Assembly (NCBI RefSeq): GCF_003838195.1
Contig: NZ_RCBY01000026.1
Span: 1-53,507 of the forward strand
Origin: Okeania hirsuta
Lineage (GTDB): Bacteria > Cyanobacteriota > Cyanobacteriia > Cyanobacteriales > Microcoleaceae
Direction of reading: 5' to 3'
DNA length: 53,507 bases
Below the pieces are notes generated by a model, which was not told the DNA's origin, did no database searches, and saw only the letters and a list, made by a program, of their open reading frames with translations. Of the stretch, positions 5,390 to 27,191 are shown in pieces. The translations under genes and the position numbers were made by a program. Numbering within the stretch: position 1 is the first letter of the stretch; each line of letters opens with the position of its first letter.

Positions 5390-5600
5390 TTTATGCTTTT
5401 AGGGAATAGAGAACAGGGAACAGCGGTGCCACCCCGCGTCAGCGACAGACGCAAGCGGTCGGAATCCGTCTTTTGCTCCCGCAAAGCTCCGCTTTATATG
5501 TTGCAGAGCAAAAGGTAAACTACAGACAAAATATAAGTATCTTTGAAGTTTAATAATTACAGACTTAATAACTGTATTCTATGTTAATGAAAACTGCTAT

Positions 5601-5750
5601 AAAATGACGGTTATTTAAGTTTTTATGGATAGATATAGAATCAGAAATACTGGGCGATCGCTCTGTTAAAATTATAGCGTTAGCGGAGCTTTGCGTCAGC
5701 AATCGCTCTATTTGCAATGCGCCATATATAGTGTCTTTCCCTAAGTCCTG
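5601..5750 (+). mobile_element. Partial MITE-related repeat (copy A). Its right ~100 bp matches the MITE family ending ATATATAGTGTCTTTGCGTAAGTCCTG
   Basis: Near-identical to copy B. Shares the TAGCGTTAGCGGAGCTTTGCGTCAGCAATCGC core and the right TIR with the full MITEs at 22989 and 25174. Lacks the left TIR. Confidence 0.7.
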
Positions 5751-5942: not shown

Positions 5943-6090
5943 AAATGACGGTTATTTAAGTTTTTATGGATAGATATAGAATCAAAAATAGTAGGTGATC
6001 GCTGACAAAAATCATAGCGTTAGCGGAGCTTTGCGTCAGCAATCGCTCTATTTACCATGCGCTATATATAGTGTCTTTGCGTAAGTCCTG
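5943..6090 (+). mobile_element. Partial MITE-related repeat (copy B)
   Basis: About 90% identical to copy A, about 340 bp downstream in the same orientation. Confidence 0.7.
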
Positions 6091-21060: not shown

Positions 21061-21313
21061 TATCAATAATCAGGACTTAGGCAAAATATGAAATCATACA
21101 CCATCTGTAGTTAAAATTGTACTTTTCCTCTACTATATGTGGTAATTATGCGTAAGCCCTGTAATAAATGTAACATTATGACAAACATCACAAAAACTTA
21201 CATATCTACTTCACTCGATCGACACCAAAAAATCACGGTTGGTTGTACCATTAATCACTACCAAATCAGGAAAAAGAGTGGATGATTAAAATATAGAATT
21301 CAAGGTTAATCTT

Positions 21314-21508: not shown

Positions 21509-21599
21509 ACATAGAGTTGGCGATCGATACTTTGTCTAAATGTTATGCCTCAACAAATTCATCAGGAAATGCTTACCTTCTTCCTTCTTCCTTCTTTTC

Positions 21600-22520
21600 C
21601 TAAAACAAAAAAATCATCCGAATAATTCCCACAGTAATAGTGTCATTATCTTCATCATGTTCGGGATTAATAACTACTAAAACTCCCGGATTAATTGAAA
21701 TATTGTCATTAATTTGATAACGATAAAAACCCTCTAAATGCCAAGCTGTATCATCATCATCTGGACCATTATCAGTATCAGTTACTTTAGGTGGATTTCC
21801 AATTACAAAACCAAGCAAACTTCCCTGTTTACCTAAGTCAGTAAATCCTAAAGTAACTGCCCAATTAAAAATAGTTGCTTCATCTCCTTCCTTAACAAGA
21901 CCAACAGATTTTTCAGCATCAGCAAAACTCCATCCAGTCCAACCGGAAACTGTGAAATTATTCAAAGCACGCCAACTTCCTTGAATACCTAAATGATCTG
22001 CGGAAGTGGGAACTAAATTACCAAAGGGTGCATTTGCTCTTCTACTACCTGTTGCTGCTGAGACAAATAACTTTCTTTTTGGATAGTAAGAACGTACATA
22101 AGTAACGCCAAAACGGAGGCGATCGCTTGGTCGAATATCTAGTTGTGCTAAACCTGCATTACTACCATTAAAAAATCCATTACTTTCTGTTGGGTTTTCC
22201 GGATCTCTTGCTAAATATCCTAATGATAAACTGACCGATTTATTAATATTATAAACAACTGTTACTCCAGCACCTCGTGCCCCTTGAGCATAGATAGGAT
22301 TGAAGCGTCCAAACCTAGAAATTGCCCCTGATATTCTCTTTGCAAAAAGTCTGTTGAAGTTATCAGAAACATTCATATTAAACCTACCACCAATAGCATC
22401 AACATGAACTCTAAATTTTTTCCCAATGGGAAAACGATAGAATAATTTACCAATATCAACAGTATTATTAGTATTTCTTTGAAACGCTAAACGAGTCATA
22501 TTTGTTCCAGTTATTGGCAC
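21600..22520 (-). pseudogene. OprB-family cyanobacterial porin, beta-barrel part only (N-terminally truncated)
   Basis: TRLAFQRN...LFYRFPIGKKFRVHV...GAISRFGRFNP blocks. Ends in an aromatic C-terminal residue (F). No SLH or coiled-coil N-terminal region. Confidence 0.55.
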
Positions 22521-22608
22521 TCCATAGGCAACTATCCTCTACAATCAATTTGGCTCACTTCCTGAAGTTACACCTTTTCTAGATGGGATTAAACCAGTTG
22601 TTCTATCC

Positions 22609-22962
22609 TTAATTTTTAGGTGGTACTCCTTGCAAAGCAGTAATCAGAGGTCTGACCGCTCGACTAATCAAAGGTTTTATACCAGCTATTATTCCGAGGA
22701 AACTGCCACTTAATGTTGCTATTGTGAAGCCACTAATTGCATTTAAACTAGTAGTTAAAATAGCTAAAGTTAATTTATTTGCCGTTGCCAAATTTTTCAG
22801 AGCGACTAGAGTTTCTAGAGGAGAAGGTAGAATGATTGAACTATAGTGCATTGCTAGTAGTTGCCATATAGTTATAAATCCTAAAAAGCCGATTAATTCA
22901 GGTAAAATAACTTGAATTAGTTTGAATATATTTTTATCAAATTTATCAGATTGAATCATCAA
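22609..22962 (-). pseudogene. ABC transporter permease (NrtB/SsuC/TauC type), N-terminal 117 aa only
   Basis: ILPSPLETL and SGFTIATLSGSFLGIIAG permease blocks. Ends ...QGVPPKN* where the conserved permease loop should continue. Confidence 0.55.
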
Positions 22963-22988
22963 CTTGACTATGTTATTTTAAACTTGAA

Positions 22989-23152
22989 CAGGACTTACGC
23001 AAAGACACTATATATAGCGTTTACCAATTTAGGCGATTGCTGACGCAAAGCTCCGCTAACGCTTAAAAAATCAAGTGCGATCGCCTCAAGATTTTGGGCA
23101 TTTTTCAAACAAGAGTAAAAACACTTAATATAGTGTCCTTGCGTAAGTCCTG
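22989..23152. mobile_element. MITE, 164 bp, with 25-bp terminal inverted repeats CAGGACTTACGCAAAGACACTATAT
   Basis: Both TIRs read directly. Same family as 25174-25448 and the partial copies at 5601 and 5943. Confidence 0.8.
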
Positions 23153-23317
23153 ATTAAAATACATTTTAAGACATAGTTGTTTAACTTCAGGGTGATATGC
23201 TTTGGGTTTAGGAGATTCAACAAATTGATGTCCACAGTCGTGACAACGATAAGATTGTTTTTGCCGACGAAAACCATTTTTCTTATAACGAGAAGATTGG
23301 CATTTGGGACAGTACAT
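23153..23317 (-). pseudogene. IS transposase N-terminal zinc-ribbon fragment (IS1/InsA-like)
   Basis: MYCPKCQSSRYKKNGFRRQKQSYRCHDCGHQF. After LKMY the reading frame runs into the MITE TIR. Confidence 0.5.
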
Positions 23318-23483
23318 TTTTTCTTGAGTTTGACAACAATTTTATTCTATAGCATTCTATATTCACTAACGCCTGAAAGTTTACATTAGGCATCTCCAAT
23401 AATCAAAAATAAAATCAATTATCATACATAAATCATCAATTATTTCCCCCTACTCCCTACTCCCTACTCCCTACTCCCTCTTT

Positions 23484-23489
23484 TCCGGA
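23484..23489 (+). promoter_or_regulatory. TCCGGA (DIF+-like heterocyst-promoter hexamer, part of TTCCGGAGATGTCTAT) about 75 bp upstream of the EF1A-like start
   Basis: Motif seen directly. The link to heterocyst-specific promoters comes from published Anabaena TSS work. Confidence 0.25.
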
Positions 23490-23559
23490 GATGTCTATTT
23501 TTGAGAGTTGAATAGAGTGTAAGATGGTTAATCAGTTGTTGAATATAACTAAGATTATT

Positions 23560-24957
23560 ATGGCTCAGTCTCTAAACGATCACCTTCACCTTTCTATCAT
23601 TGCATGTGGTCACGCTGGTTCCGGTAAGTCCACCACCCTATGACACTTGATCTACAAATGCGGCTCGATTACCAAGCGTCAGATATCTACGTTTGAGAAA
23701 GAGTCTCTTGAAATGGGAAAGGGGTCTTCCAAGTATGCCTGGGTCATGGATAGAACTCCGGAGGAACGCGAGCGAGGTATGACCCTAGAGGTGAACTACT
23801 GGAGAATAAAAACGGAGAAATATTTCTGCCATCTCATTGATGTTCCCCATGCCATTGATCAAGTGATTAGTGCGGCCTCCCAAGCTGATGCTGCGATACT
23901 CATGGTTGATGCCAAAAAAGGAAGCTTTGAAGCTGGCTATGCTATGGACGGACAAACTCGCCAACACGCTTTCATACTCTATTGCCTTGGTGTCAAGCAG
24001 CTTATTGTTGCTGTCAATCAGATGGATGCTGTTAACTATGACCAAGAGCGCTACAACGAGATTGTTCTAGAAATGAGTGAACTTCTCAAAAAAATTGGCT
24101 ACAATCCGAAAGCAATTAGGTTTATTCCTATCTCTGGATGGACAGGTGAGAACTTCTTGGAACCAGCAAGTAATATGAGTTGGTATCAAGGTACTCATAT
24201 TGAGATGATGAACAGGTACGGGAATTTGGTACGAGCTTCTTTTAAAACCCTCTTCGAGGCTATTAATACCTTTCTTCTACCTTCAGATGACTCTGGACCC
24301 ATGCGTACCTGTGTCTCTAGAGTATTTCAACCCGGGGACGACCATAACCTACAGATTGGTAATGGTCGATTTTCATTTATGGGACATGTTGAACGTGGAA
24401 TCCTTAAGCCGGGAGATGAAGTTGTCTTTTACCCCACTCACACCAACTCCAACCCTTGCACAGCTAGAATTACCAATCTAGAGATTAGCCATGAGGAGAC
24501 CACCTCCGCTAAGAAGGGTAACATTGTCAATTTTATTCTCGATGGTATTTCCCATGCTAACTCGCCCCATGTTGGTGATGTCATGGTTCATAAATCCGAC
24601 TCCTCTATTGGCAGGATTCGGAGCTTCCAAGCTCAGGTTATTGTGCAATCTCATTGTGGTTCGATTGAAGTTGGCTACCAGACCACAGTCCTTATCAATA
24701 GTGCCCAGGTTGTAGTCCGCCTCACTGCTATCGAGCGTCAACTAGATAGAAGGGGTCGCACCATCGCTGAGAACCCCGCTAAGATTGAGGAAGGAGATGG
24801 TGCCATTGTTACATTTGAAGTCCAAGAACCTTTAACGGCAGAGCCATTCAAGGATTGTTCAGGACTGGGTCGGTTGATTCTGATGGACGGTAATAAGAAT
24901 TCTGAGGGCGTTGCCAATTTAATAGTTGGTGTCATCCGAGAGGTTGAACGTGTTTGA
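23560..24957 (+). pseudogene. eEF1A/aEF1A-like (EF-1alpha family) GTPase with in-frame TGA at 23641-23643 and degenerate G3/G4 motifs
   Basis: Frame from the ATG at 23560 gives [39 protein letters not shown]... then GKGSSKYAWVMDRTPEERERGMTLEV..., ASQADAAILMVDA, QLIVAVNQMD, and domains II-III collinear with eEF1A. Confidence 0.7.
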
Positions 24958-24962
24958 CCTAC

Positions 24963-25020
24963 CCATTGACATCCTCTCCCGCTAAATCGAAGATTATAGC
25001 GGGAGATTCCCAAACATCGC
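24963..25020 (+). repeat. Hairpin-containing dispersed repeat (copy 2), directly after the EF1A-like stop
   Basis: See 7684-7745. Stem CCCGCTA/TAGCGGG. Confidence 0.6.
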
Positions 25021-25173
25021 TATTTGGGTTCCGGGTTTAAGTAGCAATTGTGCAAGAAACCCCGTTAAGGTATTTGCGATCGCGCTCTCCAATTAAACCT
25101 CTCTGAGAAAAAACCCTGAGACCCTTGATTTATCGTTATAAATTTCTGCACCAAATAAACTACAGTTTATTAA

Positions 25174-25448
25174 CAGGACTTACGCAAGGACACTATATAT
25201 GGTGCTTAGCGTTCAGACTATCTCTATATTGGCACTGCTTACTAGGTTCCTCTGAGCGATCGCCTGAACTCCAAAACATAACTAATAGATATCTCCGAAA
25301 AAGAATCTGAAATCCCTGTGTATAGGTAAAAATATAATTTCTAGAGATGTTTAATGGAATATTCACTAACATAGGCGATCGCACTTGATTTTTTAAGCGA
25401 CCGCCTAAATTGGTAAACTCTATATATAGTGTCTTTGCGTAAGTCCTG
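25174..25448. mobile_element. MITE, 275 bp, same TIR family (CAGGACTTACGCAAGGACACTATATAT ... ATATATAGTGTCTTTGCGTAAGTCCTG)
   Basis: Both TIRs read directly. ORF-track entries 25193-25600 and 25341-25541 lie inside it and are probably spurious. Confidence 0.8.
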
Positions 25449-25703
25449 TTGAATATAATCTTGACAGGATTTATCGCAGAAGGAACACAGAGTAATATAA
25501 TTCCCTTGATCATCATACAATGCGTAGGGGCGAATGGCCATTTGTGCTCCGCAAAGCTCCGAATGGCGCCCCTACAATATAGACTCTTAATCTTAAACAA
25601 TGCTGAATAACACTGATGCGACCAGATTTGAGATCAAACCCTTGTAGGAATGTTCCATGGAACGCCCCTACATTCTTTTTCGGAAGGAAAGCAAGTTGAA
25701 AAC

Positions 25704-27191
25704 CTACGAAGCACTTCCAATTACAATATCGCGCACCCGCACAGGTACACAACTATGAGTCATTTGAGCTATCTGCATCGGTTCCCCTTTCCCACAAATA
25801 TTAGTACCACACTGCTCCCTTTCTGCAACAGTTCCCACCGCATCAACACTATTCCAAAAATCTGTTGTCATCGAATGATAAGTCACATCTTTCAACATTC
25901 CCACAACTTTGCCTTTTTTCACCTGCCAAAAAGCATCTCCACCAAATTGAAAATTCCGTCGCTGTTGGTCAATAGAAAAACTACCAACACCATCAATTAA
26001 AATCCCATCTTCAGTATCAGCAATCATTTCATCTAAACTAGCAGTATGACTACCACCATCAGGACCCGCTTCTAACCCCAAATTCGGAATGCGTACCATC
26101 GGTACACTCGACCAACTGTCAGCAAAAGCACAACCATTACTACTACCACGTCCAAGTCGGTAAGCTGTTTCTCGGTCTGTGAGATAATCAACTAATATCC
26201 CATCCTTAACAACATACCATTCTTGTGACTTCACACCTTCATCATCATATCCCATGGTGCTACGACCCCCTGGTTGAGTGCGATCGCATTTAAAATTCAC
26301 CCAGGGAGCAGCATATTGAAGTTTACCCATTTTATCGGTAGTGGCAAAACTGGTACCAGCAAAATTAGATTCATAACCATAAACCCTATCTAATTCAGTG
26401 GGGTGTCCAACAGATTCGTGGATAGTTAAAAATAGATTCGTTGGCTTTAAAATTAGAGTGGAGCGAATATCCGCAGGTCCTTTGGGAGCATAAACTTTTT
26501 CAATTGCTTCCTCAGCAACTCGTTCTACCTGACTCAATAGATCAGTGGGGTTAATATGCTCATAACCAATATTCAAAGGAGGTCGTTCGTAACTGCGACT
26601 TTGAGCATCATTATTGGCAATAGCTGTGCAAGAAAACCCAGGATAGCTGCGGTAAATTGTTTGCTCAATTAGGGAACCATTTGTAGAAGCAAATATTTTC
26701 TCTTCTTTAGTAAACCGGAGAAAAGAAGCAGCTTTTTTCACTCCTCGCTCCTCATAACTCAATAATTTCTCATTCAAATTTAGAAGTAATTCTGCTTTTT
26801 CGCCAATGGGTACTGCAAAAGGATCAATTTCAATGGGAGTAACATAACTATCACGGTAGGTTTCCACAGGTACTAACTTTACAGGTGTTTGTTGACAGAG
26901 ACGACTACCCTTAGCAATATCTACTGCCAGAGCAACAACTCTAGCTACCTCTTCTAGACTTTGGCGATGACTGGCAGCAAAACCCCATGCACCATTGAGC
27001 AAAACTCTCACCCCAAAACCAGAATTGACCTTATCTTCTAATCTGTTGAGAGAGCGATCGCGAGCTGTTAAATTTTGAGAACGATAAATACATAAGCGAA
27101 TATCTCCATATTCACATCCGGACTGACGAATTAAGTCTATTGCGAAGGTAGCTAATTCTGTAGTTTTAATCTTTGCTGGTGCTTGTACCAT
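25704..27191 (-). CDS. tldD: TldD/PmbA-family metalloprotease (peptidase U62)
   Basis: 495 aa with N-terminal pattern and length typical of TldD. No PmbA partner in the window. Confidence 0.75.
   Translation of the reverse strand: MVQAPAKIKTTELATFAIDLIRQSGCEYGDIRLCIYRSQNLTARDRSLNRLEDKVNSGFGVRVLLNGAWGFAASHRQSLEEVARVVALAVDIAKGSRLCQQTPVKLVPVETYRDSYVTPIEIDPFAVPIGEKAELLLNLNEKLLSYEERGVKKAASFLRFTKEEKIFASTNGSLIEQTIYRSYPGFSCTAIANNDAQSRSYERPPLNIGYEHINPTDLLSQVERVAEEAIEKVYAPKGPADIRSTLILKPTNLFLTIHESVGHPTELDRVYGYESNFAGTSFATTDKMGKLQYAAPWVNFKCDRTQPGGRSTMGYDDEGVKSQEWYVVKDGILVDYLTDRETAYRLGRGSSNGCAFADSWSSVPMVRIPNLGLEAGPDGGSHTASLDEMIADTEDGILIDGVGSFSIDQQRRNFQFGGDAFWQVKKGKVVGMLKDVTYHSMTTDFWNSVDAVGTVAEREQCGTNICGKGEPMQIAQMTHSCVPVRVRDIVIGSAS

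What the first reader, a model, noticed from the sequence alone, without database searches (positions are those of the whole stretch)
22984..25453. 2.46-kb MITE-bounded composite unit carrying the EF1A-like gene, flanked by a 5-bp TTGAA direct repeat
Two complete MITEs of the same family (22989-23152 and 25174-25448) bracket an IS1-like transposase zinc-ribbon fragment, the EF1A-like gene and a hairpin repeat. Both MITEs have CAGGACTTACGCAAAGACACTATAT termini. Immediately outside the outer ends the sequence reads TTGAA on both sides (22984-22988 and 25449-25453). That is what a 5-bp target-site duplication from insertion of the whole unit as a composite transposon would look like. The inner junctions read ATTAA and TTATTAA. 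The unit sits between a truncated porin/permease pair and tldD.
Basis: seen in the sequence. Interest (0 to 1): 0.7.

Follow-up and report, generated by a model that had tools for sequence, protein, structure and literature searches.

The report
MITE-bounded composite transposon carrying EF1A-like gene
A 2.46-kb block of DNA in the marine cyanobacterium Okeania hirsuta, bounded by two small relics of an IS701-family jumping gene and carrying a eukaryote-like elongation-factor gene, was inserted in one piece, because a sister strain still has the uninterrupted target site.

Summary
The window is a whole Okeania hirsuta contig.

- **Ends.** M1 (22989-23152) and M2 (25174-25448) are independent deletion derivatives of a 1.3-1.7 kb IS701-family insertion sequence. 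They lie in inverted orientation, with identical 29-nt termini outermost.
- **Repeat length.** TTGAA abuts both outer ends. Elsewhere, 9 of 15 full-length and 6 of 25 short copies of this family carry exact 5-bp duplications. The target consensus is W-T-N-A-W, and a chance match is about 1%.
- **Empty site.** In Okeania sp. SIO2G4-group contigs (TldD 97.6% identical) the two flanks are contiguous and share a single TTGAA. No unit is present there.
- **Distribution.** Other Okeania species also lack the unit. Five O. hirsuta-type contigs compared carry it, sequence-identical, at this one site. No second copy was found.
- **Cargo.**
  - An IS1-family transposase stub, cut off by M1's inner end.
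  - A 111-bp dispersed repeat.
  - An eEF1A-like gene, about 42% identical to eukaryotic eEF1A. It has the highest GC3 in the window, an in-frame TGA at codon 28, and degenerate G3 and G4 motifs.

This is a new member of a known kind, the MITE/IS composite transposon. The unit is probably immobile now and the gene probably decaying. The eukaryote-type passenger is the unusual part.

The parts
22984..22988 (.). Left copy of the 5-bp target-site duplication, TTGAA.
   Evidence: Read directly. It is present once in the empty site of L127. It fits the family target consensus W-T-N-A-W.
22989..23152 (-). M1, a 164-bp non-autonomous derivative of the IS701-family IS. It consists of about 139 nt of the IRR (transposase-downstream) side plus a 25-nt IRL-type terminus. 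It is inverted relative to M2, so its IRR-type terminus is outermost.
   Evidence: Termini. Positions 22985-23127 are 89% identical to the right end of the 1,494-bp IS in L066. Positions 22987-23041 are 91% identical to the right end of the intact IS in L015. It has no duplication of its own (TTGAA / ATTAA).
23153..23317 (-). IS1-family transposase stub covering codons 1-55 (zinc ribbon). It is cut off by M1's inner terminus after ...LKMYFN. The first 5 bp, ATTAA (23153-23157), form the inner-left junction.
   Evidence: NF033558 transpos_IS1 E=1.6e-16, model positions 1-55 of 199; NF050000 Zn domain 46.9 bits against a cutoff of 28. A homologous relic in T. erythraeum continues ...MYVNGIG, so the frame is truncated here.
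23387..23497 (.). A 111-bp repeat with TAGRCATCTCC inverted termini and a CCCTACT heptamer run. It belongs to a dispersed Okeania/Trichodesmium family.
   Evidence: Read directly; heptamers shown (family D5). It is 75-89% identical to copies in L102, L067, L098, L055, L045, L118, L119, L125 and L126.
23560..24957 (+). eEF1A-like reading frame of 465 codons with an in-frame TGA at codon 28 (23641-23643). GenBank annotates only the 436-aa part starting at TTG 23647.
   Evidence: Translation. Pfam GTP_EFTU 1.9e-37 plus domains 2 and 3. TIGR00483 scores 335.8 bits, below its cutoff of 540. The best PDB matches are mammalian eEF1A1/2 at 340 bits, ahead of archaeal aEF1A at 237-280. The nearest database proteins outside Okeania are eukaryotic EF1A at 35-46% identity, about 42% for the full-length ones. 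GC3 is 43.8%, the highest of 18 long ORFs in the window.
24976..25005 (+). Hairpin with a 9-bp stem (CTCCCGCTA...TAGCGGGAG), 19 nt after the EF1A-like stop codon.
   Evidence: Read directly. The terminator scan did not call it, because no T-run follows.
25169..25173 (.). Inner-right junction ATTAA. It is the same 5-mer as at 23153-23157.
   Evidence: Read directly. ATTAA and TTAAT are among the commonest flanks of this family (10 of 152 ends).
25174..25448 (+). M2, a 275-bp non-autonomous derivative. It consists of about 200 nt of the IRL (transposase-upstream) side plus about 75 nt of the IRR side. Its IRR-type terminus is outermost.
   Evidence: Positions 25169-25374 are 94.7% identical to the left end of the IS in L066. 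Positions 25169-25260 and 25390-25450 match the left and right ends of the intact IS in L015. It has no duplication of its own (ATTAA / TTGAA).
25449..25453 (.). Right copy of the 5-bp target-site duplication, TTGAA.

Best explanation
The 2,460-bp block 22989-25448 is a composite transposon. An IS701-family DDE transposase, supplied in trans, inserted it in a single event.

**How it worked.** The enzyme acted on the two outermost, identical IRR-type termini of two inverted IS701-derived elements. It joined them to a staggered 5-bp cut at TTGAA, 26 bp upstream of an ABC-permease gene. Repair duplicated TTGAA.

**Cargo.** Everything between the elements travelled as passenger, and the inner junctions came along from the donor site. 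The passengers are:
- an IS1 transposase stub that M1 had earlier truncated;
- a small dispersed repeat;
- an eEF1A-like gene of foreign, eukaryote-type ancestry.

**Shown.**
- The block is an insertion with a 5-bp duplication relative to an empty site.
- 5 bp is this family's duplication length.
- The ends derive from an IS701-family IS.

**Inferred.**
- The transposase acted in trans.
- The unit is now immobile. The evidence is a single site, identical sequence in five contigs, and no intact transposase seen for O. hirsuta.
- The passenger gene is decaying.

**Open.** Whether the ends were MITE-sized or full-length IS copies at the time of the move.
For: **Empty site.** L127 reads ...TTTTCAAC-TTGAA-TATAATCTTGACAGGATTTATCGCAGAAGG... 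as one continuous sequence. The window's left and right flanks align to it at 97% (372 bp) and 87% (60 bp). The window's tldD side, 27264-25495, aligns at 97.3% over 1,770 bp. The two flank alignments overlap on one TTGAA. Three assemblies share that arrangement.

**Family duplication length.** Exact 5-bp repeats flank the full-length copies in L033, L018, L024, L015, L091, L061, L075, L050 and L043. They also flank the short copies in L084, L026, L036, L119, L060 and L057. The chance rate is about 1.2%. TTGAA fits the W-T-N-A-W target consensus.

**Autonomous partner.** An intact 340-aa ORF in L015 scores 377 bits on NF049921, IS701 family. Full-length homologues exist in Okeania sp. SIO2C9 and in Dapis.

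**Two elements were needed.** Both outer ends are IRR-type and both inner ends are IRL-type.

**Neither MITE has its own duplication.** M1's inner end truncates an IS1 gene whose remainder is not on M1's other side. M1's two flanks therefore come from different contexts.

**The unit is derived.** Okeania spp. SIO1I7, SIO2B3, SIO2C9 and SIO2C2 lack both the unit and the EF1A-like gene.
Against: - No second copy of the unit, and no donor locus, was found in any collection.
- All carriers have the unit at the same site with zero differences, so mobility was not observed twice.
- No intact IS701-family transposase was shown in O. hirsuta itself.
- M1 and M2 differ in structure and by about 5% in their shared parts. 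No other copy with their exact deletion junctions was seen.
- Most short copies of the family elsewhere lack duplications (19 of 25), so flank scrambling is common in these genomes.
- The matching inner ATTAA pair is not predicted by the simple model. It needs a 2-4% coincidence, helped by target preference.
Confidence: 0.88

Rival explanations
1. Stepwise assembly in place. A single IS701-family element, or a cargo-less pair of elements, inserted at TTGAA and made the duplication. The cargo entered later between the inner ends, for example by 'inside-out' attack of the inner termini on a circular foreign DNA at an ATTAA site. That would duplicate ATTAA.
For: This model would explain both nested 5-bp direct repeats at once: TTGAA outside and ATTAA inside.
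Against: Rejoining the cargo ends across one ATTAA does not restore the IS1 reading frame. It gives MYFNKL*, whereas a homologue continues MYVNGIG. The IS1 truncation at M1's inner end would then be an unexplained coincidence. A single element cannot supply two IRR-type outer ends. No intermediate state was seen in any genome.
Confidence: 0.07
2. The unit is ancestral, and the SIO2G4-group lineage lost it by precise excision, or by recombination between the two TTGAA copies.
For: The presence/absence comparison alone does not give direction.
Against: Four further Okeania species lack the unit and the gene. A precise 2.46-kb deletion across a 5-bp repeat is rare. The gene has the highest GC3 in the window and no prokaryotic relatives. 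This fits a recent gain.
Confidence: 0.03
3. Two independent MITE insertions plus rearrangements, with the TTGAA match arising by chance.
For: Pairs of family ends do bracket host genes without duplications elsewhere (L026 cobalamin adenosyltransferase-like ORF, L056 membrane protein). Many short copies lack duplications.
Against: The chance of a 5-bp match is about 1%. The empty site shows that both MITEs and all the cargo are absent together, and that the flanks join exactly across one TTGAA.
Confidence: 0.01

Closest known systems
MITE-bounded composite transposon-like structures in Acinetobacter (MITE pairs flanking class 1 integrons; two MITE-297 copies flanking a 76-kb mer region on pA297-3)
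   Same: Two non-autonomous, TIR-bearing IS derivatives bracket passenger genes. The whole structure behaves like a composite transposon that depends on a transposase in trans (described in PMC6382973, read).
   Different: The parent here is an IS701-family IS of filamentous marine cyanobacteria, with a 5-bp duplication. The two ends are different deletion derivatives in inverted orientation. The site is chromosomal. The passenger is a eukaryote-type eEF1A-like gene rather than resistance genes.
Classical IS-bounded composite transposons (Tn5, Tn10; Tn6645 bounded by ISAba3 with 8-bp duplications)
   Same: Inverted terminal elements, use of the two outermost ends, a family-specific duplication flanking the whole unit, and identification by absence from close relatives (Tn6645: PMC6382973; Tn5/Tn10 from general knowledge).
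   Different: Neither end encodes a transposase now. Whether they did when the unit moved is unknown.
IS701 family insertion sequences (IS701 of Calothrix; ISAba11 of Acinetobacter)
   Same: The autonomous partner's transposase passes the NCBIfam IS701 equivalog model NF049921. From my own knowledge of ISfinder, short 4-5 bp duplications are typical of the family, with 5 bp in the ISAba11 group.
   Different: This is a cyanobacterial subgroup with CAGGACTTACGCAAAGACAC termini and a W-T-N-A-W target preference, both measured here. I did not find it named in the literature searched.
Eukaryotic translation elongation factor eEF1A
   Same: Same three-domain architecture along its full length. It is closer to mammalian and yeast eEF1A than to archaeal aEF1A, HBS1 or eRF3.
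   Different: Only about 42% identical. It scores below the TIGR00483 cutoff. DAPGH is replaced by DVPHA and NKMD by NQMD. A stop codon separates the P-loop from the rest. It is encoded in a cyanobacterium.

Membership tests
Composite transposon | Two elements of one IS family at the two ends, with intact termini facing outward. | tested here: met
   M1 and M2 both derive from the same IS701-family IS. The outer termini are identical over 29 nt.
Composite transposon | A target-site duplication of the family's length flanks the whole unit, not each element. | tested here: met
   TTGAA lies at 22984-88 and 25449-53. M1 and M2 individually have non-matching flanks. The family length of 5 bp was shown on 15 other copies.
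Composite transposon | An empty target site exists in a related genome. | tested here: met
   L127 has the flanks contiguous across a single TTGAA.
Composite transposon | Repeated mobility, meaning copies at more than one site. | tested here: not met
   The EF1A-like protein is found only at this locus in Okeania hirsuta-type assemblies. This shows one insertion event, not ongoing mobility.
Composite transposon | A cognate transposase is available. | tested here: inconclusive
   Intact 335-347-aa homologues exist in Dapis, a Microcoleaceae MAG and Okeania sp. SIO2C9. None was shown for O. hirsuta, and only one 53.5-kb contig of it was available.
MITE (non-autonomous IS derivative) | Short, non-coding, with the TIRs of an autonomous IS. 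| tested here: met
   M1 is 164 bp and M2 is 275 bp, with no transposase ORF. Their ends align to both ends of the full-length IS.
MITE (non-autonomous IS derivative) | Amplified as a family of like-sized copies that each carry a duplication. | tested here: inconclusive
   A class of copies about 90 bp long, and one 233-bp copy, carry 5-bp duplications. No other copy with M1's or M2's own deletion junction was seen. They may be remnants of full-length IS copies that decayed in place.
IS701 family (the autonomous partner) | The transposase passes the curated family model. | tested here: met
   NF049921 scores 377.1 bits against a cutoff of 250. Pfam DDE_5 and DDE_Tnp_1 are above their cutoffs.
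Translation elongation factor EF-1 alpha | Passes the equivalog model, with intact G1-G5 GTPase motifs in one reading frame. | tested here: not met
   TIGR00483 scores 335.8 against a cutoff of 540.1. The DxxG motif reads DVPH and the NKxD motif reads NQMD. A TGA at codon 28 separates the P-loop from the remainder.

The most novel reading that the evidence does not exclude
A eukaryote-derived eEF1A paralogue entered a cyanobacterial lineage and was moved between genomes as the passenger of an IS701/MITE composite. On this reading it is still expressed in Okeania hirsuta, either as a P-loop-less 436-aa protein or through TGA read-through, and has a role outside translation. The evidence does not exclude this. 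The 436-codon frame is still open despite only about 42% identity to any eEF1A, which implies long evolution as a coding sequence. The carriers are too nearly clonal at this locus to test for selection.
Probability: 0.12. Interest if true: 0.7.

Novelty: new member of a known kind. Interest (0 to 1): 0.45.

Why it matters
This is a clean, fully documented case with ends, family-specific duplication, autonomous partner and empty site all identified. It shows IS701-derived miniature elements moving a passenger gene in the Okeania/Trichodesmium group, whose genomes are crowded with such repeats. It gives a concrete route by which foreign genes become mobile inside cyanobacterial chromosomes. Here the foreign gene is of eukaryotic type. 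The analysis also defines a previously uncharacterised IS701 subgroup by its termini, its 5-bp duplication and its W-T-N-A-W target. That definition can be used to annotate these genomes.

Tried and rejected
1. **Inversion and intramolecular models.** I worked out the junctions expected from homologous recombination between the inverted MITEs, from replicative intramolecular inversion, and from inside-end intramolecular events. None gives TTGAA...ATTAA...ATTAA...TTGAA.
2. **Cointegrate or circle integration.** These predict the observed flank pattern, but they need direct repeats. M1 and M2 are inverted.
3. **Circular-donor model for the inner ATTAA pair.** Rejected because rejoining the cargo ends does not restore the IS1 frame.
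4. **First relatives examined.** L118, L119, L125 and L126 gave no empty site. They carry response-regulator genes or PIN/TnpB between tldD and the permease. The window's right flank showed no significant similarity to them. This looked like evidence against a simple insertion until L127 was fetched.
5. **Possible third terminus at 25465-25488.** This TIR-like string (CAGGATTTATCGCAGAAGGAACAC) is not significant against shuffles. It is native sequence, also present in L127.
6. **Metagenome scan for the left flank.** No hits.
7. **Zero differences across the unit in five contigs.** At first this suggested a sweep or purifying selection. The SNPs between these assemblies are confined to a few patches in an otherwise identical background, so no such inference is justified.
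8. **Frame errors of mine.** The translation and the EF1A-like GC3 figure started at 23561 instead of 23560. One search replaces them. The correct GC3 is 43.8%, not 53.3%.
9. **Rfam and promoter/terminator scans of the unit.** Nothing found above chance.
Full report
**Source and observation.** The window is an entire 53,507-bp contig of Okeania hirsuta. Its TldD protein is the database entry RQH49128.1, recorded on a contig of exactly that length.
- M1 is 22989-23152 and M2 is 25174-25448. Both have CAGGACTTACGCAA[A/G]GACACTATAT termini.
- TTGAA directly abuts both outer ends, at 22984-22988 and 25449-25453.
- ATTAA lies at both inner junctions, at 23153-23157 and 25169-25173.
- The terminus pattern occurs six times in the window and never in 100 shuffles.

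**What the ends are.** A scan of species-representative genomes with the terminus found at least 113 loci. They come from Okeania, Trichodesmium, Dapis, a Crocosphaera MAG and Microcoleaceae MAGs.
- Many loci hold 1.29-1.67 kb elements bounded by the same termini.
- Two of these keep an intact ORF. The 340-aa one in L015 scores 377 bits on NCBIfam NF049921, 'IS701 family transposase', against a cutoff of 250.
- Full-length homologues occur in Dapis and in Okeania sp. SIO2C9. None was listed for O. hirsuta.
- M2's left 200 nt are 94.7% identical to the left, transposase-upstream end of the IS in L066. Its right 75 nt match the right end.
- M1's left 139 nt match the right end of the IS, and only its last 25 nt are the other terminus.

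M1 and M2 are therefore two different internal-deletion derivatives, and neither can derive from the other. They are inverted relative to each other. IRR-type ends are outermost and identical over 29 nt. IRL-type ends face the cargo.

**Duplication length and target.**
- 9 of 15 full-length pairs carry an exact 5-bp direct repeat.
- 6 of 25 short pairs also do. These are mostly a class about 90 bp long, plus one 233-bp copy.
- The 152 distinct end flanks give a target consensus of W-T-N-A-W.
- Random pairings of ends match over 5 bp in about 1.2% of cases.
- TTGAA fits the consensus. Its specific chance of recurring at the partner end is below 1%.

**The decisive test.** The first relatives I fetched were Okeania spp. 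SIO1I7, SIO2B3, SIO2C9 and SIO2C2, with TldD 96-97% identical. They lack the unit, but they have 1.7-5.6 kb of other genes between tldD and an intact permease. Those genes are two response regulators, or PIN plus an IS605-type TnpB. The window's right flank was not demonstrably homologous to them.

The closest non-carrier is the SIO2G4 group, with TldD 97.6% identical. It settled the question.
- On L127, tldD is followed after 436 bp by the intact permease.
- Window 27264-25495 aligns to L127 9928-11697 at 97.3%.
- Window 25501-25449 aligns to L127 11844-11903.
- Window 22988-22617 aligns to L127 11899-12270 at 97.0%.
- The last two alignments overlap on L127 11899-11903, which is TTCAA, the reverse complement of TTGAA.
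- The three-way alignment shows L127 reading ...TTTTCAAC-TTGAA-TATAATCTTGACAGG... The window has the same text, interrupted after TTGAA by CAGGACTT... and resumed after ...AAGTCCTG with a second TTGAA.

This is a textbook empty site. The whole block 22989-25448 entered as one piece, with a 5-bp duplication.

**Why one event and two elements.**
- A single IS has one IRL and one IRR end. This unit has two IRR-type outer ends, so two elements were involved.
- Neither MITE has a duplication of its own.
- M1's inner end truncates an IS1-family transposase gene after codon 55 (NF033558). A homologue continues past this point, and the rest of that IS1 is not on M1's other side.
- M1's two flanks therefore come from different genomic contexts, which is what a composite move produces.

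I derived the junctions expected from the other rearrangements and none fits. These were inversion by recombination between the MITEs, replicative inversion, inside-end events, cointegrates and circle integration. Each fails on either the repeat pattern or the inverted orientation.

The matching inner ATTAA pair remains a mild oddity. ATTAA and TTAAT are among the commonest targets, at 10 of 152 flanks, so a coincidence of about 2-4% is enough. A circular-donor model that would explain the pair fails to restore the IS1 frame.

**Cargo.** Reading rightward from M1:
- the IS1 stub;
- a 111-bp TIR repeat with CCCTACT heptamers, which is dispersed in Okeania genomes;
- an eEF1A-like frame at 23560-24957;
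- a hairpin, followed by a stretch with a GCGATCGC (HIP1) site.

The eEF1A-like protein has the following properties.
- It has GTP_EFTU and domains 2 and 3.
- Its nearest solved structures are mammalian eEF1A1 and eEF1A2, at 340 bits. Archaeal aEF1A, HBS1 and eRF3 score lower.
- Outside Okeania, its best hits among 5.8 billion proteins are all eukaryotic EF1A, at 35-46% identity.
- It fails the EF-1 alpha equivalog cutoff.
- DVPHA replaces DAPGH and NQMD replaces NKMD.
- A TGA sits at codon 28, where eEF1A has Gly.
- Its GC3 of 43.8% is the highest of 18 long ORFs in the window. The other 17 range from 17% to 39% (which corrects).

It is most simply a foreign gene that has recently been inactivated. 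I could not test for selection, because the carriers are identical across the unit.

**Distribution and state.**
- Four further contigs of O. hirsuta-type assemblies were compared, and a second O. hirsuta contig is also on record. The four carry the unit at this site with no differences from 22428 to 26062.
- SNPs between these assemblies fall in discrete patches in the OprB fragment and in tldD. The identity of the unit is therefore not evidence for a sweep.
- No other copy of the unit or of the gene exists in the collections searched.

The unit documents one insertion event, and it is probably immobile now. It landed 26 bp upstream of the permease start. In O. hirsuta that permease is a 117-aa stub. 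It is fused, through an 85-bp piece of the chromate-transporter gene, to a 306-aa porin fragment. In L127 the permease (266 aa) and the porin (557 aa) are intact.

**Comparison with what is known.** MITE pairs acting as composite transposons are documented in Acinetobacter (PMC6382973). IS-bounded composites such as Tn5, Tn10 and Tn6645 are classical. This case has the same logic with a different parent family (IS701, cyanobacterial subgroup), a chromosomal site and an unusual passenger. I rate it a new member of a known kind. The composite itself is of modest interest. The eukaryote-type passenger raises it somewhat.

Noticed in passing
window 23560-24957 (TGA at 23641-23643): The passenger gene is eukaryote-type eEF1A-like, not bacterial EF-Tu or archaeal aEF1A. 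It has no prokaryotic relatives outside Okeania hirsuta-type genomes. It has the highest GC3 in the contig, degenerate G3 and G4 motifs, and a nonsense codon one G->T step from the conserved Gly codon. It is a candidate eukaryote-to-cyanobacterium transfer that deserves its own phylogeny.
   Followed up: partly
window 23153-23157 and 25169-25173: The two inner junctions carry the same 5-mer, ATTAA, as direct repeats nested inside the TTGAA pair. Target preference makes a coincidence plausible (about 2-4%), but the pattern is also what a two-step 'inside-out' history would leave. The IS1 frame test argues against that history.
   Followed up: yes
window 21536-22427 and 26063-26800, compared with L114-L117: Differences between O. 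hirsuta-type assemblies are confined to SNP-dense patches of 1-2% in the OprB fragment and in tldD. The patches lie about 0.55-0.6 kb either side of the unit, in an otherwise identical background. This looks like recombination tracts flanking the insertion.
   Followed up: partly
window 22532-22962, compared with L118, L119, L125, L126, L127: The permease-to-porin region of O. hirsuta is a deletion scar. It consists of permease codons 1-117, an 85-bp piece of the chromate-transporter gene, then the C-terminal 306 aa of OprB. Relatives keep permease, chromate transporter, ABC ATPase, binding protein and a 557-aa porin in various states. L127 lacks the 85-bp piece, so the decay was independent in the two lineages.
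   Followed up: partly
L127 11698-11843: The empty-site genome carries a different MITE of about 146 bp (termini CATGTCCGGTAGCATCGGTAT...). It is flanked by ATTATAT, lies about 55 bp from the TTGAA site, and is absent from the window. The same family sits upstream of the permease in L118.
   Followed up: no
window 5600-5750 and 5944-6090; 21071-21161: Two units of about 150 bp, 340 bp apart, carry only the IRR-type terminus of the same IS family. Each has a shared non-TIR left border (AAAATGACGGTTATTTAAG). A 91-bp mini-copy with diverged termini is flanked by TAAT.
   Followed up: partly
L016 5156-6504; L026 2580-4189; L056 1960-3196: L016's IS copy has 12-nt flanks that are exact reverse complements of each other (AACTGACTATAA / TTATAGTCAGTT). 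This suggests a larger palindrome or an assembly artefact. In L026 and L056, pairs of family ends bracket ordinary host genes without any duplication.
   Followed up: no
L125 13825-13910; L118 9590-9652: The class of mini-MITEs about 90 bp long consists of the IS701-type termini around a GAGGGCGAATGCCATTCGCCCCTAC hairpin. Related hairpins occur on their own at window 25517-25568. The dispersed hairpin repeats and this IS family may therefore be connected.
   Followed up: no
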